Shown here one piece after another: positions 2 to 45,777 of a DNA stretch of 64,000 nucleotides. Source of the stretch: Fidelibacterota bacterium (lineage in GTDB: Bacteria > Fidelibacterota > Marinisomatia > SCGC-AAA003-L08 > GCA-2689995); assembly GCA_014381925.1 (NCBI GenBank), contig JACNKR010000063.1:68867-132866 (forward strand). The letters are read 5' to 3'. Both the position numbers and the translations under genes were made by a program. The first letter of the stretch is position 1. Every line of letters starts with the position of its first letter. The notes beneath the pieces were generated by a model. It was not told the origin of the DNA, searched no databases, and saw only the letters and a program-made list of their open reading frames with translations.

Positions 2-691
2 CGTGAACTACAATCTGCATTTAATAGTCCCATGGCATATATTTTTCTTTTCGTATTTGCAGTTGTAAGTGGATATTTTTTCACAAGTCCATTTTTTCTA
101 ATTGGACAATCTGATCTTCGGGGATTATTTTCAATTATACCTCTTTTATACATAATTCTAATACCTGCTATCACAATGGGGATGGTTTCTAGAGATTGGA
201 ATATTGGAACGATGGAAATAATGACAACGCTACCAATTACAGATTATGAATATATAATTGGTAAATTTTTATCCGCAATTACAATTATTGTAACCAGTTT
301 GGGGTTTACTATAATCCATGTATTTACAGTTTATCGTTTCGGAACTGAAATTGATACAGGGGCAATTCTCTGTGGGTATTTTGGGCTCATTCTTTTAGGC
401 ACTTTTTATTCCTCAATTGGGATTTTCGCAAGTAGCTTGACCGATAATCAAGTATATGCATTGCTTTCAAGTTTTGGAATTGTGTTATTGTTTTTTATGA
501 TGGATAAAGTATTGATTTTTGTTCCTTCTGCAACTCTTGCTAGTTTATTACAATACATGAGTGTAGATTTTCATTTATCAAACATTTCAAGAGGTGTATT
601 AGATACACGAAATATTATTTACTTTTTATCGATGAGCTTTTTATTTATTAATCTATCGGTAAGATCATTAGAGTCAAGAAGGTGGAGATAA
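2..691 (+). CDS. ABC-2 type transporter permease, GldF-like (5' end outside window)
   Basis: The frame of ORF 32..691 stays open back to nt 2 (RELQSAFNSP precedes the first Met). The sequence is a multi-TM hydrophobic protein typical of ABC-2 permeases. A GldG-like gene follows 4 nt downstream. Confidence 0.6.
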   Translation, partial: RELQSAFNSPMAYIFLFVFAVVSGYFFTSPFFLIGQSDLRGLFSIIPLLYIILIPAITMGMVSRDWNIGTMEIMTTLPITDYEYIIGKFLSAITIIVTSLGFTIIHVFTVYRFGTEIDTGAILCGYFGLILLGTFYSSIGIFASSLTDNQVYALLSSFGIVLLFFMMDKVLIFVPSATLASLLQYMSVDFHLSNISRGVLDTRNIIYFLSMSFLFINLSVRSLESRRWR

Positions 692-695
692 GATA

Positions 696-2222
696 ATGAA
701 AGTAGAAAATAAAAATAATTTTGCGATTTATCTTGGTGTATTAATAGTAGCCATATTTCTTTTGAACTACATTTCAAGAAGTTATTATGGTCGGTTTGAT
801 TTAACAGATACTCAAATGTTTACAATTTCAGAATCGAGTAAAACAGTTTTAGAAAATATTGATGATTTATTAATTATGAGAGCATATTTTTCTGAAGACC
901 TGGGAAGTGAACTTGGAAATAATAAGCGGTATCTTCAAGATTTACTAGAAGAATATCGTGCCGTAAATAATGAATATATTGATTTTGAATTTTTCACTTC
1001 AGATGATTCTGAAGAGTTTAAAACAGAAGCCCAAAAATCAGGAATTCATCCTGTTCAATTAAATGTGATTGAAAATGACAAAATGGAAATAAAACAAGTT
1101 TTCATGGGTATGGTCATTATGTACGGAGATAAAAAAGAAAGTATCCCTGTTATTCAAACAACAACAGGTCTTGAGTATACAATTACATCGGCAATTAAAA
1201 AACTGATTAATGTTAATAAAGAAACAGTTGGCTTGGCTTCTTTGGGTGCTCCAAACCCTCAGTCAAAAAATCAAAGCATTTCTGAATTATTAAGGCAAAC
1301 CTATGATATAATGCCTGTGAATCTAGATGCGCCGGTACCACAAAATATAAGTGTTTTAATTTTAAGTGATGTAGCCGATTCATTAACAAACAGCCAATAT
1401 TCTAATTTAGATAACTATTTAGCAATGGGAGGAAGTTTGTTCTTGGCGCAAAATAGAATAAAAACAGATATTCAAGCTCAGTCAGCTCAACCAATTCCTT
1501 CAAATTTATTTACACTGTTAGAAAACTATGGTGTATCAATTAATGAAAACCTGGTCCTTGATAAAAACTGCGGTCAAGTTACAATTAGCCAAAACCAAGG
1601 ATTTTTTAGAATGAATTCAGCTAAGGATTATCCTTTTTTCCCAAAAATTACTAATTTTTCAGAAGAACAAATTGTTGTTAGTGGGTTAGAAATGATTCAA
1701 GTTTTATTTCCAAGCGAAGTAAATGCTTATGTTGATACATTAGGGTTTGGTATTGGGTCATTTACACCATTATTTATCACTTCCTCACAATCAACTACAA
1801 TGGAAGAGTTTTTTAATTTGACACCTATTGACAATCCATCATTTAGGAGCTTAAACGAGGGTTCATTTAATGTCGCCGCATTAGCTACTTATCAAAATAA
1901 TGAATCAGGATTAGAAAGTAAAATTATTATAGTTGCAGATTCTCGGTTTATTTCTGACGACGGTGGTGGGAGGATGCCCGAAAATTTAACTTTTGCATTA
2001 AATTCTGTTGATTATATGGTTGGTGATAGTGATTTAATTGCATTGCGTTCGAGAGAAATTACAACTCGTCCTTTAAATGCAGACGCTCAAGATGTGGGAG
2101 TTAAGTCTTTTTGGAAAAAATTAAATTATTTTCTTCCTGCATTATTAATTTTATTATTTGCATTCTTTAAATCAAGGTCAGAAAAAGCAAGAACACATAA
2201 ATTGGAGTATATGTATGAATAA
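696..2222 (+). CDS. GldG-like ABC transporter auxiliary protein (ABC_transp_aux type)
   Basis: 508 aa with an N-terminal TM, a large soluble domain and a C-terminal TM (FLPALLILLFAFF). An SD-like GGTGGAG lies upstream. It is adjacent to the ABC-2 permease, as in gldF-gldG pairs. Confidence 0.6.
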   Translation: MKVENKNNFAIYLGVLIVAIFLLNYISRSYYGRFDLTDTQMFTISESSKTVLENIDDLLIMRAYFSEDLGSELGNNKRYLQDLLEEYRAVNNEYIDFEFFTSDDSEEFKTEAQKSGIHPVQLNVIENDKMEIKQVFMGMVIMYGDKKESIPVIQTTTGLEYTITSAIKKLINVNKETVGLASLGAPNPQSKNQSISELLRQTYDIMPVNLDAPVPQNISVLILSDVADSLTNSQYSNLDNYLAMGGSLFLAQNRIKTDIQAQSAQPIPSNLFTLLENYGVSINENLVLDKNCGQVTISQNQGFFRMNSAKDYPFFPKITNFSEEQIVVSGLEMIQVLFPSEVNAYVDTLGFGIGSFTPLFITSSQSTTMEEFFNLTPIDNPSFRSLNEGSFNVAALATYQNNESGLESKIIIVADSRFISDDGGGRMPENLTFALNSVDYMVGDSDLIALRSREITTRPLNADAQDVGVKSFWKKLNYFLPALLILLFAFFKSRSEKARTHKLEYMYE

Positions 2223-2823: not shown

Positions 2824-3534
2824 TTGAAAATATTAATTCCGCCAAGCGAAGGTAAGGCAAATATTAAAAAGCCAATGGATATTAAATTTGGCGATACCAA
2901 TTTTGAATATATAGATGATGTTAAAATGGTAATTCGATTATTAAGCTTAATTGGAAATAATGAGATTAGGTCTATCTATGGAACTTCTCAAGAAAAAGCT
3001 GAAATTTTTCATCGTCAAAACCAAGATGCACTTAATAGTCGTGTTTGCCATGCAATTGATCGCTACACAGGCGTTGTATATGATCATATAGATTGGGCAA
3101 CACTACCAGAACATGCCCGCAACTATATGGATGAACATATTCGTATTTTTTCTGGATTATTTGGACTTGTTACTCCCAAAACGCTTATTCCAAATTATAA
3201 ACTTAAAATGAATGTACATTCTATTCAATATTTTTGGAAACCCCGATTAACTGAAATATTAAAAAAAGAAGATCTCGTAATTGATTTACTTCCACAGGTG
3301 CACCGAAAATCATATATTAAAAAAGATGTAAATGTGGTTGAGGTTGAATTTTTGATTCTGAATAAAAAATTAGGTAAAAAAGTTACTGCAGGTCATTATG
3401 GAAAAGCTGTAAAAGGTGAATTTATTCGTTTTATTGCACTAAATAAAATTAATACTATTGATGCTTTTTCAGGGTTTTCCTATGAAGGCTTTGAATGGGA
3501 CGGTGAATCATTCCTAAAAGAGGTTGATGAATAA
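2824..3534 (+). CDS. yaaA: YaaA-family (UPF0246/DUF328) peroxide stress protein
   Basis: 236 aa with a TTG start. The N-terminus MKILIPPSEGK and the DRYTGVVY motif are typical of the YaaA family. Confidence 0.6.
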   Translation: MKILIPPSEGKANIKKPMDIKFGDTNFEYIDDVKMVIRLLSLIGNNEIRSIYGTSQEKAEIFHRQNQDALNSRVCHAIDRYTGVVYDHIDWATLPEHARNYMDEHIRIFSGLFGLVTPKTLIPNYKLKMNVHSIQYFWKPRLTEILKKEDLVIDLLPQVHRKSYIKKDVNVVEVEFLILNKKLGKKVTAGHYGKAVKGEFIRFIALNKINTIDAFSGFSYEGFEWDGESFLKEVDE

Positions 3535-4867: not shown

Positions 4868-5095
4868 TTGAAGCTAATTTTTTTAACCCTGGTGATTATT
4901 TTTTTATTTGGCTGTGATAAGGCTGAAAAAGTTAGAAAAGAACAAATAATTAAAATTAACCCAACCACAATAGAGCATTCTCCTCCTGCTCAAAAATTAA
5001 TTATTTCAGCACACTATCTCGCAATTGGTTATTTTGATGATAAAAATAATCTCAAAAAAATAGATCGATTTTTAAATGGAAAACTATTGAAATAG
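4868..5095 (+). CDS. hypothetical small lipoprotein
   Basis: 75 aa with a TTG start and a lipobox-like LFGC. I recognise no homology. Confidence 0.3.
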   Translation: MKLIFLTLVIIFLFGCDKAEKVRKEQIIKINPTTIEHSPPAQKLIISAHYLAIGYFDDKNNLKKIDRFLNGKLLK

Positions 5096-5097
5096 GT

Positions 5098-35704: not shown

Positions 35705-36064
35705 ATGGGTTTAGATAAATTATATAAATTAGGTAAAACATTAGCTGTATTTACACTAACGGTTTTATTAATATCAATAACAGCTAAAGTATGGTGCGGT
35801 GGATGTGAAAATCGAAATAGTCGTTTTGGTAAATCATGTGCCGTTTCACCCTGTGCAAGTGGAAATCAAGAAGTTCAAGTCTTTGCATGGGATTCAGACA
35901 GTGGAGAAATTGACATCGAAGCAATTATAAGCGGTGAAGACTTAGACGATGAAACAAAAGCCATGCTAAAAAAAGCAATCAAAGATATTGATATCGATAT
36001 TGAGATAGATGGCGACGGAAATGAAGTAAAGAAAAAAGTAATGGTTAAAATTATCGGTGAATAA
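35705..36064 (+). CDS. hypothetical membrane-anchored Cys-rich, acidic protein
   Basis: 119 aa with an N-terminal TM followed by CGGC...C...C and a D/E/I-rich tail. No family recognised. Confidence 0.45.
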   Translation: MGLDKLYKLGKTLAVFTLTVLLISITAKVWCGGCENRNSRFGKSCAVSPCASGNQEVQVFAWDSDSGEIDIEAIISGEDLDDETKAMLKKAIKDIDIDIEIDGDGNEVKKKVMVKIIGE

Positions 36065-36279: not shown

Positions 36280-36597
36280 ATGCCACTTGCAAAAATAGAT
36301 ACATTTGATAACTCCGATAAGCAATTAGCAGATATAGCGAAAGCACTTTCTCATCCCGCTCGTATTAATATTCTTCGAATATTAAATGAGCGTAATTCTT
36401 GTATTACCGGAGAGATTGTTGATCTAATCCCCTTATCCCAATCAACGGTAAGTCAACACTTGAAGGAATTAAAACGGGTGAATCTAATAAAAGGGGAGAT
36501 TGAAGGTCCACGCACATGTTACTGTCTTAATGAAGATGTCGTTGAAAAAACAAAATCTGTATTTACAAAACTGTTTTCAACATTTAAGTGTTGTTAA
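36280..36597 (+). CDS. arsR: ArsR/SmtB-family metalloregulator
   Basis: 105 aa with wHTH ALSHPARINILRIL...STVSQHLKELK. It carries Cys pairs CYC and a C-terminal CC. Confidence 0.85.
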   Translation: MPLAKIDTFDNSDKQLADIAKALSHPARINILRILNERNSCITGEIVDLIPLSQSTVSQHLKELKRVNLIKGEIEGPRTCYCLNEDVVEKTKSVFTKLFSTFKCC

Positions 36598-36622
36598 ATA
36601 AAAATTAAAAAAAGGTAGAAAA

Positions 36623-37405
36623 ATGGAAAACAATGAAATGAAAAATATAGTCCAGGAAAAATATGCTGAAATTGCTACAGAAAATACATCTTGCTGTGGA
36701 TCTAATCCAGCAACAGATTATTCCGCTTTTAACTTAGATTATACCCGTTTAGACGGATATGTAGAGGATGCTGATCTACATCTTGGATGTGGTATTCCAA
36801 CAGAGCATGCTAATATCAAGCAGGGCGACACAATTGTCGACTTGGGTTCTGGTGCAGGAAACGATGTTTTTGTAGTTAGAAGCATTATTGGAGACAAGGG
36901 CAAGGTTGTTGGTATAGATATGACGCCTGAAATGGTTGATAAAGCAAATATGAATAAAGAAAAGCTCGGTTTTGAAAATGTTGAGTTCAAATTGGGTGAC
37001 ATTGAGAATCTTCCACTTGATGATGAAATAGGTGATGTGGTTGTGAGTAATTGCGTTCTTAATCTTGTGCCGGATAAAGAAATAGCTTTTAATGAGATTC
37101 ATCGTATTTTAAAACCAGGCGCACATTTTTGTGTTTCCGACATTGTGCTTGAAGGTCAAGTTCCACCAGAATTGAAAAAATCAGCAGAAATGTATGCAGG
37201 ATGTGTCTCTGGTGCTTTACAGAAAAATGAATATCTGGAAATAATTGAGAAAGTCGGGTTTAAAGATATTGAAGTGAAAAAAACTCGCGAAATTGTTTTA
37301 CCTCAAAATTTAATTCAATCATTTATGGATGATTCGCAATATGAAAAATATAATAAAAGCAATATAGGTATTTATAGCATTACGGTGGTGGCTACAAAAA
37401 AATAA
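36623..37405 (+). CDS. arsM: arsenite S-adenosylmethionine methyltransferase (ArsM-like)
   Basis: 260 aa. It has the SAM motif VDLGSGAGND and conserved Cys at SCCG, LGCGIP and AGCVSGA, as in ArsM. It lies directly after arsR. Confidence 0.8.
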   Translation: MENNEMKNIVQEKYAEIATENTSCCGSNPATDYSAFNLDYTRLDGYVEDADLHLGCGIPTEHANIKQGDTIVDLGSGAGNDVFVVRSIIGDKGKVVGIDMTPEMVDKANMNKEKLGFENVEFKLGDIENLPLDDEIGDVVVSNCVLNLVPDKEIAFNEIHRILKPGAHFCVSDIVLEGQVPPELKKSAEMYAGCVSGALQKNEYLEIIEKVGFKDIEVKKTREIVLPQNLIQSFMDDSQYEKYNKSNIGIYSITVVATKK

Positions 37406-37482: not shown

Positions 37483-37504
37483 AAAATTTAGCCCTTCACA
37501 CAAT

Positions 37505-37522
37505 CCTCTCTAGTTAGAGAGG
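37505..37522. terminator. bidirectional hairpin terminator between convergent arsM and OMP genes
   Basis: CCTCTCTA-GT-TAGAGAGG is a perfect inverted repeat with AT-rich flanks on both sides. Confidence 0.6.
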
Positions 37523-37544
37523 AAATTAATTACTTTACTCTTAT

Positions 37545-38450
37545 TTAATTCAGTATTTCTCTTATGCTCAAGGAAATTGTCTTACCAATTAATTGACTGC
37601 CTTCTAGGTCATGATTAAACGGCTGATCATACATTAAAGATATTGAGCGAGTATTGGTCCATTTGTATTCTAAACCAACAGCACCATTTAATTGTTTTTT
37701 TGCAGAATTATTTTCAATCATTCCAATGCCTATTTCAGATGTACTATTTATGAAACGAAGTTTAAAATATGGATAAATTTCACCATAAACAGCTACCTGT
37801 CTAAGGGTTTGCAATTGAAGGTTGATTGAATTCCCCGGTTTATATCCTATGTCGCTTTCTGTAATGGGAACAGATGCAGAACCTGATACACCAAATACCC
37901 ACGGGAATTTAGATCTCCACCACCACTCAAAACCAAGAGAGCCTGAATATTGACCGGTACCTAATCTTAAACTTTTATCCTCCTCTGTTATTTTTTGACC
38001 TGTTGGTAATGTTATTTTACCATTAATAAATAATTTTTGTCCTGGCCCCATAACATTATTTTTTACTATCCAACGAAGATTTACAGAAATATCGCCCAAC
38101 CCTTTTTTAATTTTATTTTTATGTTCTGAATCAGGGCTTTCTTCAACATTATATTGATTCCATCTTTTAAATGGAATACTAACAAAAGCATTGATGTTTT
38201 CAGTTATTCCAAACATACCGTAAACATTTAACAAATTTAAATCTACATTGCCTTCTAACTCTATATTATTATCTGACTCAAAAGTCATATATGACATGCT
38301 GGTGCCAAGCATAATTTGATTACTACTTAAACCAACTCCTTCTGTTGCACTTCCGACCGAAAGTGTCGGGCTACTTCAAAGAGGGCATTGTGCAAATAAT
38401 AAGATTGGAAATAAACCAACTAATAAAGTAAATAATAATTTCTGTTTCAT
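37545..38450 (-). CDS. outer-membrane beta-barrel protein (MetA-pathway/transporter-like) with signal peptide joined through in-frame TGA: candidate CxxU selenoprotein
   Basis: Track ORF 37545..38312 lacks a signal peptide. The same frame continues upstream through 21 sense codons, then one TGA (38376..38378), then MKQKLLFTLLVGLFPILLFAQCPL from ATG 38450. A GLGDISVNLRW motif and a beta-strand pattern lie downstream. Confidence 0.65.
38348..38369 (-). other. candidate SECIS-like GC-rich stem-loop downstream of the OMP UGA
   Basis: The RNA is UGA-AGUAGCCCGACACUUUCGGUCGGAAGUGC. It has two alternative 5-bp stems: CCGAC/GUCGG, or CACUU/AAGUG with loop UCGGUCGG. The segment is about 62% GC in an AT-rich genome. 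Confidence 0.5.
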
Positions 38451-38507: not shown

Positions 38508-39131
38508 TTAACAACAATAATTATTTTTATTTTGAGCTTTCTTAAAAGATTCTCTTCCTTCTTTAAAAGCAAAATAAGCAATTATTATTGAGCCTATTGC
38601 ATCTATTTGTTTAAATTCAAATAATTCATACCCAATACAGGAAATAAGTAAAACAAATGACAACTGCATACACACCTTTGTACAATTTGCATCAGCTATA
38701 ATTGCATCAGAATTTAATTTTTTACCTATTTCTAATTTTTCATGTACCAACCACCACATTACAATAATAGAACTTGTTGATACAATAATTCCCCAAAATG
38801 TAGTTATTGGATGAATTCCATAAATTAAATTATAAATTGATGTAATTGAAATCCCTAATGTTAATAGATAAAAAGAAGCTCCTGTAATTTGTAAAGCCCT
38901 TTTTTCAAATTGGTCTCTTTCATTAACATGATTTTTATTTACCCGTAGCATCATGTGAAAAATACCAATCCCTGAAATAACTTCTACAAATGAATCTAAC
39001 CCAAAACCAAACAAAGATAAAACTTCATCATCTAACCCAAAATATATAGAAATAATTCCTTCTATTAAATTATATACAATTGTAAAAATTGCTAATAAAA
39101 TTGCACGATTTATATTTGTATTACCCCTCAT
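38508..39131 (-). CDS. cation-transporter membrane protein (CDF-like transmembrane domain only), C-terminal CC
   Basis: 207 aa with about 6 TM, a GLDSFVEV motif and a tail ...NKNNYCC. It overlaps the czcA stop by 11 nt. Confidence 0.45.
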   Translation of the reverse strand: MRGNTNINRAILLAIFTIVYNLIEGIISIYFGLDDEVLSLFGFGLDSFVEVISGIGIFHMMLRVNKNHVNERDQFEKRALQITGASFYLLTLGISITSIYNLIYGIHPITTFWGIIVSTSSIIVMWWLVHEKLEIGKKLNSDAIIADANCTKVCMQLSFVLLISCIGYELFEFKQIDAIGSIIIAYFAFKEGRESFKKAQNKNNYCC

Positions 39132-42100
39132 CTGAAAACCATTGAAATAATGCGGGGATTACAAGTAAAGTTAAAATAGTTGAAGTAAACAACCCGCCGA
39201 CTACTACGGTTGCCAAAGGTCGTTGAACTTCGCTACCAGCTCCCGATGCAAATAGTAAAGGAAGCAATCCTAAAGATGTTGTTAATGCAGTCATTAATAC
39301 AGGCCTTAGTCTTAATTGAGCACCTTTAATAGATGCTTCATATTTTGTTGCCCCTTCTTTTACTAATTGATTCATATATGATAACAACACCATTCCATTT
39401 TCTAAAGCAATTCCAAAGAGAGCAATAAATCCAACAGAAGATGGAACAGATAAATTTTGCCCCGTGAGCCAAAGTGCAACAATTCCCCCTACAAGAGCGA
39501 GAGGAATATTGAGTAAAATAAGAAGTGAGTTTTTTAGAGAATTAAAACTAATAAACAATAATAAGAAAATAATAATTAGAGTAATTGGAACTACTACTGC
39601 TAGTCGTTTATTTGCTTCTTGTTGAAGCCGAAATTGTCCACCCCAATTAAGTAAATAACCTGGAGGTAAAACAACCTTCTCCTGAATTGCACTTTTTCCC
39701 TCTTCAACAAACGAGCCAATATCTCTATCAGAAACATTACATTGTATTGTGATAAATCGTTGATTATTTTCTCTTGTGATTTGGCGTGGCCCTGTAATTT
39801 CTTGGATATCAACTAATTCCGACAATGGAATGTTTATTCCACGAGGAGATTGCACAACTATATTAGAAATTGCCTCAACAGAATTTCTATATTTTTCTTC
39901 AAATCTAACTGTAATATCAAACCGTCTATTTCCTTCAAATATTTCTCCCACTTTTTCACCACCTATAGAAGAATGAACTATCTCTTGAATATCAGATATA
40001 TTTATACCATATCGAGCAATTGCCTGCCTATTAATCGTTATAAGTAATTGAGGAGTACCTGAAACTTGATCGACTTGTACATCATCAGCGCCAGGCACTT
40101 CACGAATAACGGCTGAAATTTTATCAGCTTTTGCTTTAAGTATTTCTAAATCATCTCCAAAAAGTTTAATTGCAAGCTCTGCTTTAATTCCTTCTAACAA
40201 TTCATCTACATTCATTGCAATAGGCTGAGTAATATTAACCAAAACGCCAGGCACATCATCAAGAGTTTCGCGAATTATACTTTCTAATCCATCTTGATTT
40301 AAATTAGGTCTCCAATTTCCTTTTTCAGCTAATATTACATACATTTCTGCACTATTTACAGGGTCTGCATGAGCCCCCACTTCACCTCTTCCTATTCGAG
40401 AAACAACGGAAGTAATTTCAGGAATACTCATCAATCTTTTTTCTATTGCTAGTGTGGTTTTTTTACTTTCGGTCAACGAAATAGATGGTGCCATTGAAAC
40501 CCTTACCACAATAGATCCTTCATTTAATTTTGGGGTAAACTCAGATCCTAATTGTGGAAAAATTGTAATTCCAGCTAATATTAAAAACACCGCTAAACTA
40601 ACAGCAATCGTTCTGTTTTTTACAAAATGAGTGATAATTGGAGTGTAAAATTTATTGAGTATTTTTACCAGCCAAATTTCTTTTACTAATTTTAAATCTT
40701 TCGGAATTTTTAGAACAAAGGTAGATAAAACAGGAGCAATTATTGTTGCATAAATCAAAGACCCAAACATTGCGATTGCGATTGTATATGCAAGAGGTCT
40801 AAATGTTTTTCCTTCTACGCCTTGCAAGGTAAATAAAGGTAAAAATACAATTATAATTATAATTATTGCAAAACTTACGGGTTTTATTACTTCTAAAAAT
40901 GCACTTGATATTAATTGTTTTTTCGATTTAGAATGCCCTGAACTTTTTAATACTTTTTCGATATTTTCAATAACAACAATTGCACCATCAACTAACATTC
41001 CAATCGCAATTGCTAATCCACCAAAAGACATTAAATTAGCCGAAATATTAAAGTAGTTCATTCCAATCATTGCAAATAAAACTGAAAATGGAATGGATGC
41101 CGCAACAACGATGCTTGGTCTAATTGAGCCCATAAAAATAAATAATATCAATACGACAAGAATAATTCCCTGTAATAATGCATTACTTACTGTTTTCACA
41201 CAAGCAGTTACTAGTGTTTTCTGTTCATAATATGGTACAATTTTAATTCCTTTGGGTAAAATATTATTTATTTCATCCATTTTTGTTTCAACTTGGCCTA
41301 TTACTGATGATGAATTAGTACCATAGAGCTTTACCACCATACCCGAAACAACCTCGCCTATTCCATTGTAAGTTTGAATACCTCGCCGTATTGCACCTCC
41401 AATTTCTATATTTGCAACTTCTTTAAGTAAAACGGGTGTACCAGATTCAGATTTAAGAATAATATTTTCAATATCCTCAATTCCAGACGCTAACCCAACG
41501 GAACGCACAATAAATTCTTCAGAGTTTTTTTCAATAAATTGTGCACCAACATTCAAATTATTATTTCTAATTTTTTCAATCACATCTTGAATCGTAATGT
41601 CATATTGCAATAGTGAAAAAGGGTTTATATTTACTTGATATTGTTTTTCATAACCACCAATTCCTAAAACTTCGGTAACCCCAGGTACTGTTTGAAGATG
41701 GAATTTGACAATCCAATCCTGAATAGATCGTAATTCTTCAAGAGAATATTGTCCACTTTCATCATCTAAATAATAAAACAATATTAACCCCATCCCTGTA
41801 GAAATTGGACCCATCTCGGGTTCTCCAAATCCTTCTGGGATTTGTTCTCTTGCTTCTTGAATTCGTTCATTTACCAACTGTCTAGCAAAATAAAGATCTG
41901 TTCCATCCTTAAAGTAAATATTCACGACTGATAATCCAAAATTAGAGACAGATCGAATTTTTGCTAATTCAGGCAAACCATTCATTGCAACCTCCACAGG
42001 ATATGTTACATATTTTTCTACTTCTTCAGGAGCAAGACCTTCAGTTGTTGTAAATACTTGTACTAAATTTGGTGATACATCGGGGAAAGCATCAATTGGA

Positions 42101-42198
42101 AGCTGTTTGTAACTGGTATAACCTGCGCCTAAAATAAGTACAGAAATTGTCAATATTAATAATCGATTTTGTAAAATAAATTGAATTAATTTTCCCAC
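39121..42198 (-). CDS. heavy-metal efflux RND pump, CzcA/CusA family
   Basis: 1025 aa with a GTG start and 12-TM RND architecture. Sequence is HME-type throughout. Confidence 0.92.
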   Translation of the reverse strand: MGKLIQFILQNRLLILTISVLILGAGYTSYKQLPIDAFPDVSPNLVQVFTTTEGLAPEEVEKYVTYPVEVAMNGLPELAKIRSVSNFGLSVVNIYFKDGTDLYFARQLVNERIQEAREQIPEGFGEPEMGPISTGMGLILFYYLDDESGQYSLEELRSIQDWIVKFHLQTVPGVTEVLGIGGYEKQYQVNINPFSLLQYDITIQDVIEKIRNNNLNVGAQFIEKNSEEFIVRSVGLASGIEDIENIILKSESGTPVLLKEVANIEIGGAIRRGIQTYNGIGEVVSGMVVKLYGTNSSSVIGQVETKMDEINNILPKGIKIVPYYEQKTLVTACVKTVSNALLQGIILVVLILFIFMGSIRPSIVVAASIPFSVLFAMIGMNYFNISANLMSFGGLAIAIGMLVDGAIVVIENIEKVLKSSGHSKSKKQLISSAFLEVIKPVSFAIIIIIIVFLPLFTLQGVEGKTFRPLAYTIAIAMFGSLIYATIIAPVLSTFVLKIPKDLKLVKEIWLVKILNKFYTPIITHFVKNRTIAVSLAVFLILAGITIFPQLGSEFTPKLNEGSIVVRVSMAPSISLTESKKTTLAIEKRLMSIPEITSVVSRIGRGEVGAHADPVNSAEMYVILAEKGNWRPNLNQDGLESIIRETLDDVPGVLVNITQPIAMNVDELLEGIKAELAIKLFGDDLEILKAKADKISAVIREVPGADDVQVDQVSGTPQLLITINRQAIARYGINISDIQEIVHSSIGGEKVGEIFEGNRRFDITVRFEEKYRNSVEAISNIVVQSPRGINIPLSELVDIQEITGPRQITRENNQRFITIQCNVSDRDIGSFVEEGKSAIQEKVVLPPGYLLNWGGQFRLQQEANKRLAVVVPITLIIIFLLLFISFNSLKNSLLILLNIPLALVGGIVALWLTGQNLSVPSSVGFIALFGIALENGMVLLSYMNQLVKEGATKYEASIKGAQLRLRPVLMTALTTSLGLLPLLFASGAGSEVQRPLATVVVGGLFTSTILTLLVIPALFQWFSDEG

Positions 42199-42286: not shown

Positions 42287-43249
42287 TTAATGATTATGAC
42301 CACCGCCAAATGAAGATTTAGCTATTTGGGCTTTCAATATAAAACCACCTTTTTTAACATATTGTTGACCAATTTTTAATCCTGACAATATTTCTACAAA
42401 TTCAGAATTTTGTTGACCAATTTTTATATTAATAGGTTCATATCCATGTTCATTTTTTGTAAAGACTACATCTAAACCTTTTATAGTTTCAATTGCTGTT
42501 TTTGGAATCATAATACTACAACTAGATTGACTAATGGTAACAAACCCGGTAATAAACTGTCCTGGCCGAAGCCATCCATATGAATTAGAAAGCACTACTC
42601 GAGCAATTGCTGTTCGTGTATGTTCATCAATTGTAGGTGATATAAATGAAATTTCGCCCGATATTGAAGGAAAATCTTTTTTAATTAAAACATTTACAGT
42701 TTGTCCAATTTTTAATTGTGTCAAATATTTTTGATAAACGCTTAAATTCAACCATACTTTTGAAAGATTTGCGATTGCAAAGAAATTATCTGAATTTTGA
42801 GCCGTTTCTCCTTTTGTAAAGTGCATATCAATTATAATACCATTAATTGAAGATTTTAACTCATAAACGGTAAGACTTTCATTACTTTCAATAATTGCAA
42901 GTAAATCACCCTCGTTAACTTTATCACCAATTTGTTTATAAACCTCTTTTACTAATCCACCAAAACGAGGAGTAATATGCACCAGTCTATCAGGATCCAG
43001 CTGTATTTCTCCAGGTAATTCAATTGTTTTATTTAAAATGCCACTTGAAGCAATATCAACCTCAGCCCCAAATTCAAAAAGTACTTTTTCAGTAATATTT
43101 TCTTTATGATCTTCATGATCACCATGTCCAGAATGGCTTTCATGTTCCTGTATTGAATAATTATTTTGATGTGAATTCACCATTTCTTTTGTAACCCAAA
43201 AGGTAATGAGTGCTGTTATAATTATTGTACTAAGTATAATTTTTTTCAT
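42287..43249 (-). CDS. efflux RND periplasmic adaptor (CzcB/CusB-like) with His-rich termini
   Basis: 320 aa with an N-terminal anchor, then HESHSGHGDHEDHKE, a lipoyl/beta-barrel MFP core and a C-terminal GGGHNH. Confidence 0.85.
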   Translation of the reverse strand: MKKIILSTIIITALITFWVTKEMVNSHQNNYSIQEHESHSGHGDHEDHKENITEKVLFEFGAEVDIASSGILNKTIELPGEIQLDPDRLVHITPRFGGLVKEVYKQIGDKVNEGDLLAIIESNESLTVYELKSSINGIIIDMHFTKGETAQNSDNFFAIANLSKVWLNLSVYQKYLTQLKIGQTVNVLIKKDFPSISGEISFISPTIDEHTRTAIARVVLSNSYGWLRPGQFITGFVTISQSSCSIMIPKTAIETIKGLDVVFTKNEHGYEPINIKIGQQNSEFVEILSGLKIGQQYVKKGGFILKAQIAKSSFGGGHNH

Positions 43250-43280: not shown

Positions 43281-44087
43281 TCAATGATTATGATGATGAT
43301 CGTCATTGTCATTGTCATTGTGATTATGTTGATGCTCCTCTTCATGATGCTGGGTATCATCTTCTGTATTTTTTTCTAAATGAGTTTCATGAAGGTGTTG
43401 AATTTCTAATTTATCAGTTATTGCTTTTGCAGAATAATATCCATTTAATTGAAATACGAGTAAAAATGAGCCTGCAATTATTAACATCCAATTTGTCACT
43501 ATTGAAATATTAGATAATTTTTTCCGTAACAAAAGTAATATTGGAAAAGCGATTACTAAAGCTGTTATTTGCCCAATTTCAACACCTGCATTAAAAGATA
43601 AAATTTTATAAACTAATTGATGGTGTCCCAAGTCAATTTGTTGCAAACGAGTTGAAAGGCCAAACCCATGAATTAATCCAAATATAAACACCATAAAAAC
43701 TTTATTTGGTACATTTATGGATAACCATTTATTGAAACCATCAAGATTTTCAAATCCTTTATAAATAACACTGAATGCAATTACAGCATCAATTAAATAA
43801 TAATTTGCATTTATCTCATAAAATGTAGCAAAAATAAGAGTGATACTATGTCCTATGGTAAATGCTGTGATAAATTTTGCAATGTCAGCAAGTCGGGATA
43901 AAAAGAAAATCACTCCAATTAAAAACAATATATGATCATAGCCTGTTATCATATGTTTTGCTCCTAGTATAAAAAAATCTGAAAGCCCACCTTGAACCAT
44001 TTCCACCTTATCCGATTCTGACACACCATGTGCAAAGATAAATGAAGGTAAACACAATATTGATAATTTTAAAAATAAGTTTTTCAT
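43281..44087 (-). CDS. HupE/UreJ-family membrane protein with His/Asp-rich C-terminal tail
   Basis: 268 aa with a signal peptide followed by HGV, and multiple TM segments. The tail is HLHETH...HHEEEHQHNHNDNDNDDHHHNH. Confidence 0.65.
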   Translation of the reverse strand: MKNLFLKLSILCLPSFIFAHGVSESDKVEMVQGGLSDFFILGAKHMITGYDHILFLIGVIFFLSRLADIAKFITAFTIGHSITLIFATFYEINANYYLIDAVIAFSVIYKGFENLDGFNKWLSINVPNKVFMVFIFGLIHGFGLSTRLQQIDLGHHQLVYKILSFNAGVEIGQITALVIAFPILLLLRKKLSNISIVTNWMLIIAGSFLLVFQLNGYYSAKAITDKLEIQHLHETHLEKNTEDDTQHHEEEHQHNHNDNDNDDHHHNH

Positions 44088-44088
44088 T

Positions 44089-45306
44089 TTAATTTTCTCC
44101 TAAAAATGAGTGATTTGTTCTCCCGAGAATACGATTAATTTCCCAGGTTTTATTATGATAGTCTTGAAGAGCATTTAAATATTGAATCTGAGATAGAAAC
44201 CACATTTCTTTAGCATCTACAACCTCTAAATAAGTATATCGTCCATTCATATATCCATCCATTATAATTGAATATGCTGAATTTGCTTCAGGTATAATCA
44301 TTGTTTCCAATAGTATAATCTCAGATTTAATTTCATTTAATGAATTGATAATATTTTCAATTTGAGAATTAATATCATTTTTTATTTTTATTAATTCAAG
44401 TTGAGTCATTTCTAATACAGAAAGTTCTCGGTTAATATTGCCATTATTTTGATTAAAAAGAGGAATAGGTAATGTTACCCCTAATTGGAAAGAATTCCCT
44501 AATTCATTTTTTTTTATTCCTGTTCCAAATTCAATATCTGGTATTATTTTTAATTTTTCTAATTTAACTTTTATATTTTGAATTTGAATTTGAATGTTTG
44601 CTTGAACTATTTTAGGTGCAATATTTATATTAAATTCATTATTTATTTTAAATGGTGTGGAAAAATGATATAAATCTGATAAATGTCCTACTGCAATATT
44701 ATAAGACAAACTATTATCTTCATAAAATGTAGATAATGAATTCCAGGCATTGGGTAATTGGTTTTCAATTTTCAATAATTTTATTTTTTCTTGATATAAT
44801 TGAATTTTTGCCCGAGATGCTTCAACGGGAGAAAATTTACCTGCAATAACTTTCTTTTTTACCGCTTCTAATAATTCTTCAGAAATTAATATTCGGTTTC
44901 TCTGAAGTGATTTCATTTCCTGATAAAAAAGAATTTCGATAAATAAGTGATATGATTCATTTAAAACCTGAGATTTTTGTTCATCATATTCTAATTTGGC
45001 TAAATTTAATTCAAATTCTCTTAATTGAATATTTTGTTTTCGTTTCCCTCCAAGTAAAATATCTTGAGTAAGCATTCCACTTATCTCGGGTTCAATTCCA
45101 AAATCAGATTCAATTGACAAGTTTGGATTAGAAAATTTTCGACTTTGTTTTAATTGCGCCGTTTTTACTTCAACATTTTTTTTACTTAACTTAAGTATTG
45201 AATTATGTTGAAGGACAATATCTGTAAGCGTATTAATATTTAGTTCTTGACTAAAAGTACACGATATTAAAATGACATAAATTAGCCATTTAATTAATAA
45301 ATTCAT
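44089..45306 (-). CDS. TolC-family outer membrane efflux protein (CzcC-like)
   Basis: 405 aa with a signal peptide and coiled-coil/beta repeats typical of OEP. It occupies the first structural position of the RND operon. Confidence 0.8.
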   Translation of the reverse strand: MNLLIKWLIYVILISCTFSQELNINTLTDIVLQHNSILKLSKKNVEVKTAQLKQSRKFSNPNLSIESDFGIEPEISGMLTQDILLGGKRKQNIQLREFELNLAKLEYDEQKSQVLNESYHLFIEILFYQEMKSLQRNRILISEELLEAVKKKVIAGKFSPVEASRAKIQLYQEKIKLLKIENQLPNAWNSLSTFYEDNSLSYNIAVGHLSDLYHFSTPFKINNEFNINIAPKIVQANIQIQIQNIKVKLEKLKIIPDIEFGTGIKKNELGNSFQLGVTLPIPLFNQNNGNINRELSVLEMTQLELIKIKNDINSQIENIINSLNEIKSEIILLETMIIPEANSAYSIIMDGYMNGRYTYLEVVDAKEMWFLSQIQYLNALQDYHNKTWEINRILGRTNHSFLGEN

Positions 45307-45375: not shown

Positions 45376-45777
45376 TTAAGTTAGAAGTATTGTTGTTTTT
45401 ATAAAGAGGGGTGTAGGAGGTAGAATTGTTTCTACCTGTTGAATAGAAAACTGAGAGTTCTGAAATTGCTCAAAAGGTGTTATTGTGAATTCAAAAATAT
45501 AATTATCAATTACAACATTATTTGAGTGACTTAAAAAATTTAAATCTGGATTATAGTTCCAAAACGGAATATCAAAACAATTATCGCAATCATCTTGATG
45601 TTCATCTGTTTTTTGGACAGGAACACGACATGCAATATCACATTCCGCTTCAATATTGATATGACCATCAGTTTCAAAACATAAAACCGGTGCTTCAATT
45701 CCATTTTGAAGTAATATTCCAAAACAAAAAACCCAAACAAATATTTGATGAATGATATTTTTTCTCTGTTTTCTCAT
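45376..45777 (-). CDS. hypothetical secreted/anchored Cys-His-Asp-rich protein leading the efflux operon
   Basis: 133 aa with an N-terminal TM, then CFETDGH...ECDIAC...DEHQDDCDNC. No family recognised. Confidence 0.45.
   Translation of the reverse strand: MRKQRKNIIHQIFVWVFCFGILLQNGIEAPVLCFETDGHINIEAECDIACRVPVQKTDEHQDDCDNCFDIPFWNYNPDLNFLSHSNNVVIDNYIFEFTITPFEQFQNSQFSIQQVETILPPTPLFIKTTILLT

What the first reader, a model, noticed from the sequence alone, without database searches (positions are those of the whole stretch)
37545..38450. In-frame UGA joins a signal peptide to an outer-membrane beta-barrel, giving an N-terminal C-x-x-U motif: candidate selenoprotein at the end of a metal-efflux operon
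The track ORF (37545..38312) starts MLGTSMSY with no export signal, yet the rest looks like an OM beta-barrel (GLGDISVNLRW, alternating strands). Reading upstream in the same frame gives 21 sense codons (SSPTLSVGSATEGVGLSSNQI) and a single TGA at 38376..38378. Beyond that are 24 codons from ATG 38450 that form a textbook signal peptide, MKQKLLFTLLVGLFPILLFA-QCPL. The residues before the TGA are C-P-L, so readthrough as Sec yields CPLU, the CxxU arrangement typical of redox or metal-binding selenoproteins, placed right after the predicted signal cleavage site. Directly 3' of the UGA is AGUAGCCCGACACUUUCGGUCGGAAGUGC, about 62% GC in an otherwise very AT-rich genome. It can fold as CCGAC/GUCGG, or as CACUU/AAGUG starting 10 nt after the UGA with a loop UCGGUCGG containing GGUC. 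That spacing and loop resemble bacterial SECIS elements. TGA is a genuine stop elsewhere in the window, so a reassigned code is unlikely. The gene starts 57 nt after the CDF-like gene of the CzcCBA-type operon. A Sec/Cys pair tethered to an OM barrel could therefore be a periplasmic or outer-membrane metal(loid) handling site. I do not know of a described selenoprotein of this type.
Basis: partly seen in the sequence, partly recalled or inferred. Interest (0 to 1): 0.88.

Follow-up and report, generated by a model that had tools for sequence, protein, structure and literature searches.

The report
New outer-membrane selenoprotein family in SAR406
The in-frame TGA is real and almost certainly encodes selenocysteine, revealing an unannotated, ocean-wide family of small outer-membrane channel proteins in Marinimicrobia (SAR406) that start with a Sec-x-x-Sec (here Cys-x-x-Sec) motif and sit in mercury, copper and zinc resistance gene clusters.

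Summary
The minus-strand gene 38450..37545 encodes a signal peptide, then Q-C-P-L-[TGA], a ~20-residue linker and a 12-stranded outer-membrane barrel. The TGA is identical in six independent assemblies. It is conserved in two diverged orthologue lineages, with synonymous changes on both sides. Seventy-nine further metagenomic loci and all seven protein-derived look-ups show signal peptide-Q-U-[P/A]-L-U, so the window's Cys column is itself TGA elsewhere. A distant all-Cys sister family in Chitinophagaceae has CxxC at the same place. A hairpin (38365..38348, GGUC loop) lies 17 nt after the UGA, meets all four published bSECIS criteria and shows covariation at synonymous sites. Other textbook selenoprotein genes lie on related Marinimicrobia contigs. 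The fold matches the COG4313 channel Pput2725 and FapF. Neighbours are often mer, cop or czc genes. No Pfam or NCBIfam model and no entry in a 2026 inventory of 119 selenoprotein families covers it. All database members are N-terminally truncated "hypothetical proteins". The soft-metal-binding function is inferred. Sec machinery in the source genome could not be checked.

The parts
37545..38450 (-). Complete selenoprotein gene (301 codons + stop), read through one in-frame UGA. Currently annotated only from the internal ATG (NCBI MBC8197900.1, 250 aa, 'hypothetical protein H8E60_08455').
38391..38450 (-). Signal peptide MKQKLLFTLLVGLFPILLFA: basic n-region, 15-residue hydrophobic core, small residue at -1. 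Predicted signal-peptidase-I cleavage before Gln.
   Evidence: By inspection. Across three orthologue lineages, 9 synonymous versus 6 conservative hydrophobic substitutions. An equivalent signal peptide is present in 79 metagenomic loci.
38376..38390 (-). Mature N-terminal motif Q-C-P-L-U (CAA TGC CCT CTT TGA). It is Q-U-P-L-U in almost all other family members.
38376..38378 (-). Sec-encoding UGA codon.
   Evidence: Conserved in all loci examined.
38348..38365 (-). bSECIS-type hairpin CACUUUC-GGUC-GGAAGUG (loop 38358..38355). There are 10 nt between the UGA and the stem base and 17 nt between the UGA and the loop.
   Evidence: Upper four pairs 100% paired in 60 unique sequences; pair 30:39 shows CG/UA/UG/AU/GC. 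Covariation score 0.384 versus 0.149 in shuffles, 0/500. RNAalifold consensus. bSECIS criteria met (PMC13188914).
37548..38375 (-). Rest of the mature protein: ~20-residue pre-barrel segment (SSPTLSVGSATEGVGLSSNQ) followed by a 12-stranded beta-barrel.
   Evidence: AlphaFold2 pLDDT 81.6, pTM 0.80, 12 strands. Foldseek: 4RL8 TM 0.74-0.76, FapF TM ~0.70. Pfam PF13557 E 2.8e-4.
37504..37523 (.). Perfect 9-bp inverted repeat TCCTCTCTA/TAGAGAGGA between the convergent selenoprotein and arsM genes. Possible bidirectional terminator hairpin (no T-run).
38508..39131 (-). Upstream gene, CDF-like (Cation_efflux), 207 aa, ending in ...NNYCC.
39121..42198 (-). CusA/CzcA-family heavy-metal RND permease.
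42287..43249 (-). RND periplasmic adaptor (CzcB/IhpB-like) with His-rich ends.
43281..44087 (-). HupE/UreJ_2 membrane protein with a His-rich C-terminal tail.
44089..45306 (-). Outer-membrane efflux protein (OEP/TolC-like, IhpA-like). The operon therefore already has its own efflux duct.
36280..37405 (+). Convergent arsR (36280..36597) and arsM (36623..37405). Metalloid context, not part of the gene.

Best explanation
The minus-strand gene 38450..37545 is one intact gene for a secreted outer-membrane selenoprotein.

Shown or strongly supported:
- The UGA at 38378..38376 is decoded as selenocysteine. The signal is a standard bacterial SECIS hairpin (38365..38348, GGUC loop) that starts 10 nt after the codon.
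- Translation therefore runs from a Sec-type signal peptide into the barrel.
- The barrel is a 12-stranded channel of the COG4313/FapF type.

Inferred:
- After signal-peptidase-I cleavage, the mature protein begins Gln-Cys-Pro-Leu-Sec.
- In almost all relatives it begins Gln-Sec-Pro-Leu-Sec, and one hairpin lies within range of both UGAs.
- As in the closest solved structure, Pput2725, the roughly 25 residues before strand 1 are proposed to lie at or inside the periplasmic mouth of the barrel.
- The selenolate/thiolate pair there would bind thiophilic metal ions (Hg2+, Cu+/Ag+, Cd2+/Zn2+).
- The protein would then act as the outer-membrane gate or relay for the metal systems encoded beside it: MerT/MerP/MerA, CopA/multicopper oxidase/CopZ, and Czc-type RND plus CDF in this window.
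- The direction of transport is not known.

Likelihoods:
- Sec recoding: about 0.9.
- Outer-membrane 12-stranded barrel: about 0.9.
- Soft-metal-binding role of the N-terminal pair: about 0.5.
- The single confidence value given (0.7) is for the whole statement taken together.
For: Recoding:
- The TGA is identical in 6 independent assemblies.
- It is conserved in orthologues of 90% and 75% identity. Substitutions are 9 synonymous / 6 conservative upstream of the TGA and 8 synonymous / 3 nonsynonymous between the TGA and the internal Met.
- 79 of 80 metagenomic pattern hits and 7 of 7 protein-derived look-ups encode signal peptide-Q-[U/C]-[P/A]-L-U-barrel.
- All 120 listed family proteins are truncated and lack signal peptides.
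- The window's Cys aligns with TGA in relatives.
- The all-Cys sister family has CxxC right after the signal peptide in 62 of 69 members.

SECIS:
- GGUC loop in 58 of 60 unique sequences.
- Upper stem 100% paired, with five pair types at a pair formed by two synonymous third positions.
- Covariation 0/500 shuffles, and slid registers score far lower.
- All four bSECIS criteria are met for both UGA positions (PMC13188914 Fig. 2 legend).

Sec use in the phylum:
- HMA GMT-U-HSC, DsbA-like U-PYC, Trx-like W-U-FPC and HMA-like U-FG-U genes lie on barrel-carrying Marinimicrobia loci.

Fold:
-.
- The N-terminus of Pput2725 occupies the barrel lumen (PMC4493636).

Context:
- mer operons in L006, L034 and L012.
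- cop locus in L098.
- CDF, P-type ATPase and Czc loci.
- 26 of 60 locus groups have a soft-metal gene within +-4 genes, nearly all on the same strand.
Against: - No selA, selB, selD or tRNA-Sec was found in the window, in +-10 kb beyond it, or in 636 kb of related loci. That is too little sequence to count as absence.
- No second selenoprotein gene was found in about 104 kb of the window's own genome.
- Single-sequence folding energies are not better than shuffles, and the window hairpin alone is only -7.3 kcal/mol.
- The metal-binding function is inferred from motif chemistry and neighbours only.
- 34 of 60 locus groups show no recognisable metal gene nearby.
- The commonest neighbour is an uncharacterised BNR-like protein.
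- The operon in the window already has a TolC-like duct.
- The N-terminal segment is modelled with low confidence, and the Sec motif could not be included in the prediction.
- In an oxidising periplasm a UxxU pair may sit as a diselenide.
- The window subfamily lacks the His motifs conserved in the main clade.
Confidence: 0.7

Rival explanations
1. The N-terminal Sec/Cys pair is a redox centre rather than a metal ligand. It would act as a periplasmic selenylsulfide/diselenide that exchanges with substrates or partner proteins, for example a DsbA/DsbD-like relay or a peroxide or polysulfide scavenger anchored to the outer membrane.
For: CxxU and UxxU are classic redox motifs, and most bacterial selenoproteins are thiol oxidoreductases (PMC13188914). 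Thioredoxin-fold genes sit next to some family members: L006 Thioredoxin_3, L010 DsbA-like and L040 Trx-like selenoproteins.
Against: The motif is not inside a thioredoxin fold; it lies on a flexible N-terminal tail of a channel. The recurring neighbours are metal transporters, chaperones and reductases rather than redox enzymes. The same UxxU spacing occurs in HMA-type metal-binding selenoproteins (NF041115).
Confidence: 0.2
2. The protein is a COG4313-type uptake channel for hydrophobic or neutral small molecules. Candidates include neutral Hg species, organomercurials, or unrelated hydrophobics. The Sec pair would only tune or guard the pore.
For: The closest solved fold is Pput2725, a family implicated in uptake of hydrophobic molecules (PMC4493636). 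There is a weak PF13557 hit. An arsM gene is adjacent in the window.
Against: No aromatic or hydrocarbon catabolic genes lie nearby. The near-obligate conservation of two Sec residues argues for a direct chemical role.
Confidence: 0.15
3. The UGA is read through, but not as selenocysteine. It would be decoded as Trp, Cys, Gly or Arg by near-cognate decoding or a local recoding signal, in a lineage without Sec machinery.
For: Sec machinery was not found in the sequence available for the window's genome.
Against: The TGA alternates specifically with Cys. The hairpin fits the SelB-type bSECIS model with a conserved G-U in the loop. Other canonical Sec/Cys-motif genes occur on related contigs, one with a similar GGUCU loop. 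TGA is otherwise a normal stop.
Confidence: 0.05
4. The TGA is a plain nonsense mutation or assembly error (pseudogene), or the barrel is translated on its own from Met47.
For: Gene callers and NCBI annotate only the 250-255 aa ORF.
Against: The sequence is identical in 6 assemblies. The TGA is conserved over lineages with 25% protein divergence, under purifying selection on both sides. It recurs in more than 85 loci. Met47 is not conserved in the family. An outer-membrane barrel without a signal peptide could not be exported.
Confidence: 0.01

Closest known systems
COG4313 / Phenol_MetA_deg (PF13557) outer-membrane channels, e.g. Pput2725 of Pseudomonas putida F1 (PDB 4RL8)
   Same: 12-stranded barrel of about 270 residues (TM 0.74-0.76). 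A segment before strand 1 that, in Pput2725, folds into and occludes the lumen from the periplasmic side (PMC4493636). Weak Pfam similarity.
   Different: 13-14% identity. The Pfam score is just below the gathering threshold. No COG4313 member is known to carry Cys or Sec at its N-terminus or to be linked to metals. Here the pre-barrel segment is longer (about 25 residues) and begins with U/C-P-L-U.
FapF amyloid secretion channel (PDB 5O65/5O67/5O68)
   Same: Best Foldseek E-values (1e-11, TM ~0.70). A 12-stranded barrel.
   Different: No fap genes nearby, no coiled-coil N-terminal domain, unrelated sequence.
Unnamed all-Cys 'transporter' family of Chitinophagaceae, Lewinellaceae and Panacibacter (e.g. 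P0030, P0184, P0225)
   Same: Signal peptide followed at once by C-[DEP]-x-C (often CxxCGC), then a homologous barrel (hhalign probability 92.6%). It is the Cys counterpart of both Sec positions.
   Different: Only distantly related (phmmer E about 1e-3). It has Cys not Sec, comes from a different phylum, and showed no informative metal context in the one locus examined.
[quoted passage not shown]
   Same: Sec in an outer-membrane beta-barrel protein. The TonB-dependent receptor has a CxxU motif (PMC13188914, Table 1).
   Different: No NCBIfam model matches any family member. The barrel types differ (22-stranded TonB-dependent receptor and large MtrB-type barrel versus a 12-stranded channel). 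Here the Sec pair sits at the very N-terminus of the mature protein.
UxxU metal-binding (seleno)protein NF041115, and HMA/MerP/CopZ proteins
   Same: Two chalcogen ligands spaced x-x, an association with mer/cop loci, and two UGAs six nucleotides apart. One such gene lies 300 nt from a family member (L098).
   Different: HMA is a soluble ferredoxin-like fold. Here the pair sits on the tail of a membrane barrel, and there is no sequence homology.
Escherichia coli fdhF-type bacterial SECIS
   Same: A short hairpin starting about 10-11 nt after the UGA, with a G-G-U-C apical loop (from memory for fdhF). It fits the published bSECIS consensus (PMC13188914).
   Different: Only 7 bp. Half of the family has a 3' bulged C rather than the 5' bulged U of fdhF. 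It serves two UGA codons in most members. There is no Rfam match.

Membership tests
Bacterial selenoprotein gene (SelB/SECIS-dependent UGA recoding) | In-frame UGA conserved in orthologues, with coding constraint on both sides | tested here: met
Bacterial selenoprotein gene (SelB/SECIS-dependent UGA recoding) | Cys/Sec pair: homologues carry Cys at the UGA column | tested here: met
   First position: Cys in the window lineage versus TGA elsewhere. Both positions: CxxC in the distant sister family. No close homologue has Cys at the second position.
Bacterial selenoprotein gene (SelB/SECIS-dependent UGA recoding) | bSECIS model: 3-9 nt loop, 4-16 bp stem, G in the first two loop positions, 16-37 nt from UGA to loop, MFE <= -7.5 kcal/mol (PMC13188914) | tested here: met
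   Loop GGUC, 7 bp, 17 nt to the loop (26 nt from the first UGA position). MFE -8.1 (45 nt) and -15.0 (66 nt). 98% of 60 unique family sequences pass.
Bacterial selenoprotein gene (SelB/SECIS-dependent UGA recoding) | Hairpin conserved with compensatory substitutions | tested here: met
Bacterial selenoprotein gene (SelB/SECIS-dependent UGA recoding) | selA, selB, selC (tRNA-Sec) and selD present in the same genome | not testable with these tools
   Only about 104 kb of the genome could be reached and none was found. Indirect support: other canonical selenoprotein genes lie on related Marinimicrobia contigs.
Bacterial selenoprotein gene (SelB/SECIS-dependent UGA recoding) | Selenium actually incorporated (75Se labelling or mass spectrometry) | not testable with these tools
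   Requires an experiment.
COG4313 / Phenol_MetA_deg (PF13557) outer-membrane channel | Pfam PF13557 match at or above the gathering score | tested here: not met
   21.5 bits versus a cut-off of 22, E 2.8e-4. Main-clade members give no hit. Several members of the Cys sister family do carry PF13557.
COG4313 / Phenol_MetA_deg (PF13557) outer-membrane channel | 12-stranded barrel superposable on Pput2725 | tested here: met
   12 strands, pLDDT 81.6. 4RL8 TM 0.74-0.76, E 4e-10.
COG4313 / Phenol_MetA_deg (PF13557) outer-membrane channel | N-terminal segment folded into the barrel lumen | tested here: inconclusive
   A ~25-residue pre-strand segment exists, but it is modelled at pLDDT 38-73. The Sec motif could not be submitted and coordinates cannot be inspected.
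Known outer-membrane selenoproteins (NF049945 TonB-dependent receptor FCYXU; NF041027 GSU2204) | Match to the NCBIfam model | tested here: not met
   0 NCBIfam hits for the window protein and 10 family members.
TolC/OEP outer-membrane factor of RND efflux systems | OEP (PF02321) domains | tested here: not met
   No OEP hit for the target. The operon's OEP is a separate gene at 44089..45306.
Mer transport proteins (MerT/MerP/MerC/MerE/MerF) | Sequence homology to a Mer transporter family | tested here: not met
   No Pfam or NCBIfam Mer hit for the target. The link to mer operons is by neighbourhood only.

The most novel reading that the evidence does not exclude
The family is the missing outer-membrane step of soft-metal traffic in SAR406. 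It would be a 12-stranded channel whose N-terminal diselenolate plug acts as a selectivity filter or shuttle, passing Hg(II), and also Cu(I) or Cd/Zn, across the outer membrane to or from MerT/MerP, CopA or Czc systems. Marinimicrobia are proposed to be major marine mercury methylators (PMC8163782). Such a channel would therefore tie selenium availability directly to mercury uptake, detoxification and possibly methylation in the ocean interior. It would also be a rare selenoprotein family for which no close all-Cys version exists.
Probability: 0.3. Interest if true: 0.9.

Novelty: new member of a known kind. Interest (0 to 1): 0.78.

Why it matters
- Annotation. It adds a large, ocean-wide and so far invisible family to the bacterial selenoproteome. 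At least 210 clusters at 90% identity are all annotated as truncated hypothetical proteins. The family belongs to one of the most abundant deep-ocean phyla.
- Method. It shows a blind spot of discovery pipelines based on Cys/Sec pairs. This family has no close all-Cys homologue, whereas the field's rule is that nearly all selenoproteins have more abundant Cys versions (PMC13188914).
- Biology. It places one or two selenocysteines at the mature N-terminus of a small outer-membrane channel encoded in mer, cop and czc loci. That points to an outer-membrane, selenium-dependent step in handling Hg, Cu and Zn/Cd, a step for which no dedicated protein is known in mercury resistance.
- Testability. 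The hairpin resembles the E. coli type, so 75Se labelling and reporter assays in E. coli are realistic. Existing marine metaproteomes can be searched again for the N-terminal peptide.

Tried and rejected
- A protein-pattern scan of metagenome contigs with the three close orthologues found nothing. It was replaced by a degenerate DNA pattern.
- Single-sequence RNA folding gave z-scores from -1.3 to +0.6. This is not evidence either way, so alignment-based covariation was used instead.
It was rejected because CCGAC is not conserved (CCUAC in L001) and the wider family supports the GGUC-loop hairpin.
- Rfam gave no SECIS-like match, only a chance lysM-Prevotella hit at E 5.
Only the post-UGA part could be modelled.
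- A strict TGA + NGUN-loop hairpin scan found nothing beyond the family. A looser scan for Cys-context TGA splits then found four other selenoprotein genes.
- A reassigned genetic code was rejected: TGA ends 6 of 55 long ORFs, and long Pfam-complete ORFs have no internal TGA.
- A lipoprotein reading of the window protein was rejected: Gln, not Cys, follows the predicted cleavage site.
- The genomic context of the all-Cys sister family (L089) was uninformative.
Full report
**1. Observation**

- ATG 38450, then MKQKLLFTLLVGLFPILLFAQCPL.
- TGA at 38378..38376.
- SSPTLSVGSATEGVGLSSNQI, then ATG 38312, 254 further sense codons, and TAA at 37547..37545.

The window has 30.7% G+C. TGA ends 6 of 55 ORFs of at least 120 aa, and no other credible TGA-split ORF exists in the window. 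The 138 nt upstream of the internal ATG, TGA included, are identical in six independent assemblies from different samples, one at 247x coverage. A sequencing or assembly error is therefore excluded.

Exact-sequence look-ups place the window in a Candidatus Marinimicrobia (SAR406/Fidelibacterota) MAG. NCBI annotates only a 250-aa "hypothetical protein H8E60_08455" there.

**2. Close orthologues**

A word-indexed protein search found only two relatives, 90% and 75% identical. Both are called at 253-255 aa, truncated at the same Met. Their DNA (L001/L002/L005 and L003/L004, from five assemblies) keeps the signal peptide, QCPL, the in-frame TGA and the following frame.

Codon by codon:
- The 24 codons upstream of the TGA show 9 synonymous and 6 conservative hydrophobic changes.
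- The 21 codons between the TGA and Met47 show 8 synonymous and 3 nonsynonymous changes.
- Six consecutive codons, ACA CTT TCG GTC GGA AGT, are invariant at the nucleotide level.

Both flanks are therefore translated, and an extra RNA-level constraint overlaps the invariant codons.

**3. The wider family**

An exhaustive HMMER search of 1.84 billion representatives with the post-TGA protein found 29 relatives. Nearly all lack a signal peptide and begin at the equivalent of the internal Met.

The DNA of two of them, 30-39% identical, reads signal peptide-Q-TGA-P-L-TGA-S-N-P-x-L-P-V-G-S. The window's Cys codon is therefore a second TGA there.

I then scanned metagenome contigs with a protein-level degenerate DNA pattern. 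The pattern left the first TGN codon, the stem positions and the loop ends free.
- 79 encode signal peptide-G-Q-U-P-L-U-[STA]-N-P-[STA]-L-P-V-G followed by a 280-330 aa ORF.
- One hit is a chance match.

The pattern forces part of the motif, so I also fetched DNA for three divergent members known only from protein searches. All three carry the motif: Q-U-P-L-U twice and Q-U-A-L-U once.

A profile search found at least 210 clusters at 90% identity:
- All are "hypothetical" and none has a Pfam domain.
- All 120 listed are N-terminally truncated, many starting at the Leu codon of L-P-V-G.
- None has a signal peptide and none is an all-Cys full-length form.

Every member that carries an organism name is Ca. 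Marinimicrobia, except one partial sequence labelled Nitrospinaceae. Locus G+C ranges from 27 to 58%.

**4. Cys counterpart**

One distant full-length hit, P0030, begins signal peptide-CDIC. Its relationship to the family is supported by phmmer E 1e-3 and by hhalign probability 92.6%, E 4.7e-7.

Its own family has 69 proteins from Chitinophagaceae, Lewinellaceae and Panacibacter. Some are annotated "transporter" or PF13557. In 62 of 69, C-[DEP]-x-C, often CxxCGC, follows directly after the signal peptide.

A pair of chalcogen residues at the mature N-terminus is therefore an ancestral feature of this barrel clade. The Marinimicrobia family is its Sec version. The window lineage has reverted the first Sec to Cys.

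**5. SECIS**

Columns are counted from the Gln codon. Columns 26-32 pair with 37-43 around a four-base loop.

In the window this is CACUUUC-GGUC-GGAAGUG at 38365..38348. It lies 10 nt from the UGA to the stem and 17 nt from the UGA to the loop.

In 60 unique family sequences:
- The loop is GGUC in 58 and AGUU in 2.
- The upper four pairs are 100% paired.
- Pair 30:39 joins the synonymous third positions of the Leu (CTN) and Gly (GGN) codons. It occurs as CG 44, UA 9, UG 4, AU 2 and GC 1.
- Pro is almost always CCG and Val almost always GTC, even in AT-rich genomes.
- 33 of 60 have a bulged C on the 3' side with a shifted lower stem.

On a 38-sequence alignment the covariation score is 0.384, against 0.149 +- 0.018 in shuffles (0 of 500 reach it). 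All slid registers score 0.166 or less. RNAalifold independently predicts the upper stem and loop.

The published bSECIS model requires a 3-9 nt loop, a 4-16 bp stem, G in the first two loop positions, 16-37 nt from UGA to loop, and MFE <= -7.5 kcal/mol (PMC13188914, Fig. 2 legend). All are met:
- The second UGA is 17 nt from the loop.
- The first UGA position is 26 nt from it, so one hairpin can serve both codons.
- The window MFE is -8.1 (45 nt) and -15.0 (66 nt).
- 98% of family sequences pass.

From memory, spacing of about 11 nt and a GGUC loop with essential G and U are also the features of the E. coli fdhF minimal SECIS. Rfam has no matching model.

**6. Sec decoding in the phylum**

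I could not reach the sel genes. There is no tRNA-Sec or SelA/B/D homologue in the window, in 10 kb beyond each end, or in 636 kb of related loci.

However, barrel-carrying Marinimicrobia loci also contain other genes split by a TGA exactly at a canonical Cys:
- An HMA-rhodanese protein reading GMT-U-HSC. It is in L098, 300 nt from the barrel gene, and its hairpin is AAGUGC-GGUCU-GCACUU.
- A DsbA-like lipoprotein reading Q-U-PYC (L010).
- A thioredoxin-like protein reading W-U-FPC (L040).
- An HMA-like protein reading U-FG-U (L064).

With U replaced by C, their Pfam domains span the TGA. Their best NCBIfam hits are curated (seleno)protein families (NF041115, NF041057). This supports Sec use in the phylum, although not directly in the window's genome.

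**7. Fold**

AlphaFold2 on the post-UGA 276 residues with a 70-sequence alignment gives pLDDT 81.6, pTM 0.80 and 12 long strands. The first 10 residues are below pLDDT 50 and residues 11-20 average about 73.

Foldseek against the PDB finds FapF (E 1e-11, TM ~0.70) and the COG4313 channel Pput2725 (4RL8, E 4e-10, TM 0.74-0.76). This agrees with the sub-threshold Pfam Phenol_MetA_deg hit.

In Pput2725 the roughly 14 residues before strand 1 fold into the lumen from the periplasmic side and almost occlude it (PMC4493636). By analogy, the ~25-residue segment that begins with U/C-P-L-U would sit at or in the periplasmic mouth of the pore. This placement is inferred, not shown.

**8. Context**

In the window the gene is the last of a same-strand cluster:
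- A 133-aa Cys-containing protein.
- OEP/TolC-like protein.
- HupE/UreJ_2.
- CzcB/IhpB-like adaptor.
- CusA/CzcA RND pump.
- A 207-aa CDF-like protein.
- The selenoprotein.

It is followed by a 9-bp inverted repeat and by convergent arsM-arsR. The close orthologues also follow CDF, HupE or CzcA genes.

Elsewhere the gene sits in the following arrangements:
- merR-merA-thioredoxin-barrel (L006).
- merR-merT-merA-merTP-barrel (L034).
- merA-barrel (L012).
- merT-like-CopZ-N-terminal metallochaperone-barrel-arsR (L023, L064, L065).
- CDF-barrel (L020, L067).
- P-type ATPase-barrel (L016).
- A cop locus with YHS, HMA-rhodanese, multicopper oxidase and CopB (L098).

Of 60 distinct locus groups, 26 have a recognisable soft-metal gene within four genes. 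Twenty have an uncharacterised BNR-like lipoprotein.

**9. Mechanism**

Shown or strongly supported:
- One gene, with UGA recoding through a SECIS-type hairpin.
- An exported 12-stranded barrel.
- An N-terminal Sec/Cys pair.
- Linkage to metal loci.

Inferred:
- Signal-peptidase-I cleavage before Gln. Gln at +1 is typical of the FCB group "Q-rule", from memory.
- Location of the motif at the pore.
- Binding of thiophilic metals by the selenolate pair.
- A role as outer-membrane gate or relay for the adjacent Mer, Cop or Czc systems.

Sec, with a pKa of about 5.2 (PMC13188914), would be a deprotonated, very soft ligand in sea water. It would also resist irreversible oxidation.

The window subfamily differs from the main clade:
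- Cys replaces the first Sec.
- Ser replaces Pro in L-P-V-G.
- A loop of about 20 residues is missing.
- The conserved His motifs IDWWH, HHRxE and HxHF are missing.

Its metal preference may therefore differ, in line with its Czc/CDF rather than mer/cop context.

**10. Known or new**

- No Pfam model passes threshold, and no NCBIfam model (release 20.0, June 2026) hits the window protein or ten family members.
- A May 2026 inventory of 119 prokaryotic selenoprotein families lists nothing like it. The nearest entries are an FCYXU TonB-dependent receptor, an MtrB/PioB-type barrel, a UxxU HMA-like protein and a MerT-like protein (PMC13188914).
- Full-text searches for the motif, and for selenoproteins in Marinimicrobia, found nothing.
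- The classic marine surveys required Cys-containing homologues to call a family (PMC2398784). That explains the miss.

The recoding mechanism is standard, so I file this as a new member of a known kind: a new bacterial selenoprotein family. It has unusual traits:
- A double Sec at the mature N-terminus.
- No close all-Cys form.
- An outer-membrane channel fold.
- A phylum-wide distribution in SAR406.

**11. Verdict**

- Observation: confirmed.
- Confidence: about 0.9 for a selenoprotein, about 0.9 for an outer-membrane barrel, and about 0.5 for soft-metal binding as the role of the motif.
- Main gap: the Sec machinery of the source genome, plus any experimental proof.

Noticed in passing
L098:4954-5661 (+), TGA at 5095-5097: An HMA-rhodanese fusion is split by a TGA at the first Cys of the GMTCxxC metal site (GMT-U-HSC). 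A hairpin AAGUGC-GGUCU-GCACUU follows. It is annotated as a 47-aa ORF plus a 181-aa ORF. It lies 300 nt downstream of a barrel family member in a Marinimicrobia cop locus.
   Followed up: yes
L010 TGA at 1118-1120 (- strand); L040 TGA at 662-664 (- strand); L064 TGAs at 3128-3130 and 3137-3139 (+): Three more TGA-split genes lie on barrel-carrying loci: a DsbA-like lipoprotein (Q-U-PYC), a thioredoxin-like protein (W-U-FPC) and an HMA-like protein (U-FG-U). With U->C, the Pfam domains span the TGA.
   Followed up: yes
e.g. L013:11842-13117; found in 20 of 60 locus groups, at position -1 or +1 relative to the barrel gene: The commonest neighbour is an uncharacterised ~424-aa lipoprotein. It has a weak BNR_2 (beta-propeller) match and Cys motifs (ICECCPTD, PGCP). 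It has no NCBIfam hit and may be a partner protein.
   Followed up: partly
L089:5723-6586 (P0030) and proteins P0180-P0242: An all-Cys sister family in Chitinophagaceae, Lewinellaceae and Panacibacter has signal peptide + C-[DEP]-x-C-G-C + barrel. It is annotated only as 'transporter' or hypothetical. The first Cys might instead be a lipidation site (A-C junction).
   Followed up: partly
window 38508-39131 (-) and 36280-36597 (+): The CDF-like protein ends in ...NNYCC and the ArsR-family regulator ends in ...FKCC. Two adjacent genes thus have C-terminal Cys-Cys pairs, a motif typical of soft-metal(loid) binding.
   Followed up: no
window 43281-44087 (-), 42287-43249 (-): The HupE/UreJ_2 protein has a long His/Asp/Asn-rich C-terminal tail (...HHEEEHQHNHNDNDNDDHHHNH). 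The RND adaptor has His-rich N- and C-termini. A HupE/UreJ gene inside an RND efflux operon is unusual.
   Followed up: no
window 45376-45777 (-) and L005:1294-1695; window 35705-36064 (+): Two small ORFs have no family hit. One is a 133-aa protein at the head of the efflux cluster, conserved in the orthologous locus (CFETDGHINIEAECDIAC). The other is a 119-aa protein with a CGGC motif next to arsR.
   Followed up: no
alignment A2, columns 26-44 (family-wide): The SECIS comes in two structural classes. 27 of 60 unique sequences have a continuous 6-7 bp stem. 33 of 60 have a bulged C on the 3' side with the lower stem shifted by one. Two sequences have the loop AGUU instead of GGUC. L095 has a re-registered hairpin GUUGCC-AGGU-GGUGAC.
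   Followed up: partly
L034:4356-5554; also L014, L040, L058, L071: Some family members are interrupted after 73-235 codons. In L034 (a mer operon) the C-terminal half continues in another frame. These may be pseudogenes or assembly and frameshift errors.
   Followed up: no
alignments A3 and A5: The main Marinimicrobia clade has nearly invariant His-containing motifs (IDWWH, HHR[DT]E, H[RS]HF) and a ~20-residue loop. The window's subfamily lacks them. They are possible additional metal ligands and a sign of subfamily specialisation.
   Followed up: partly
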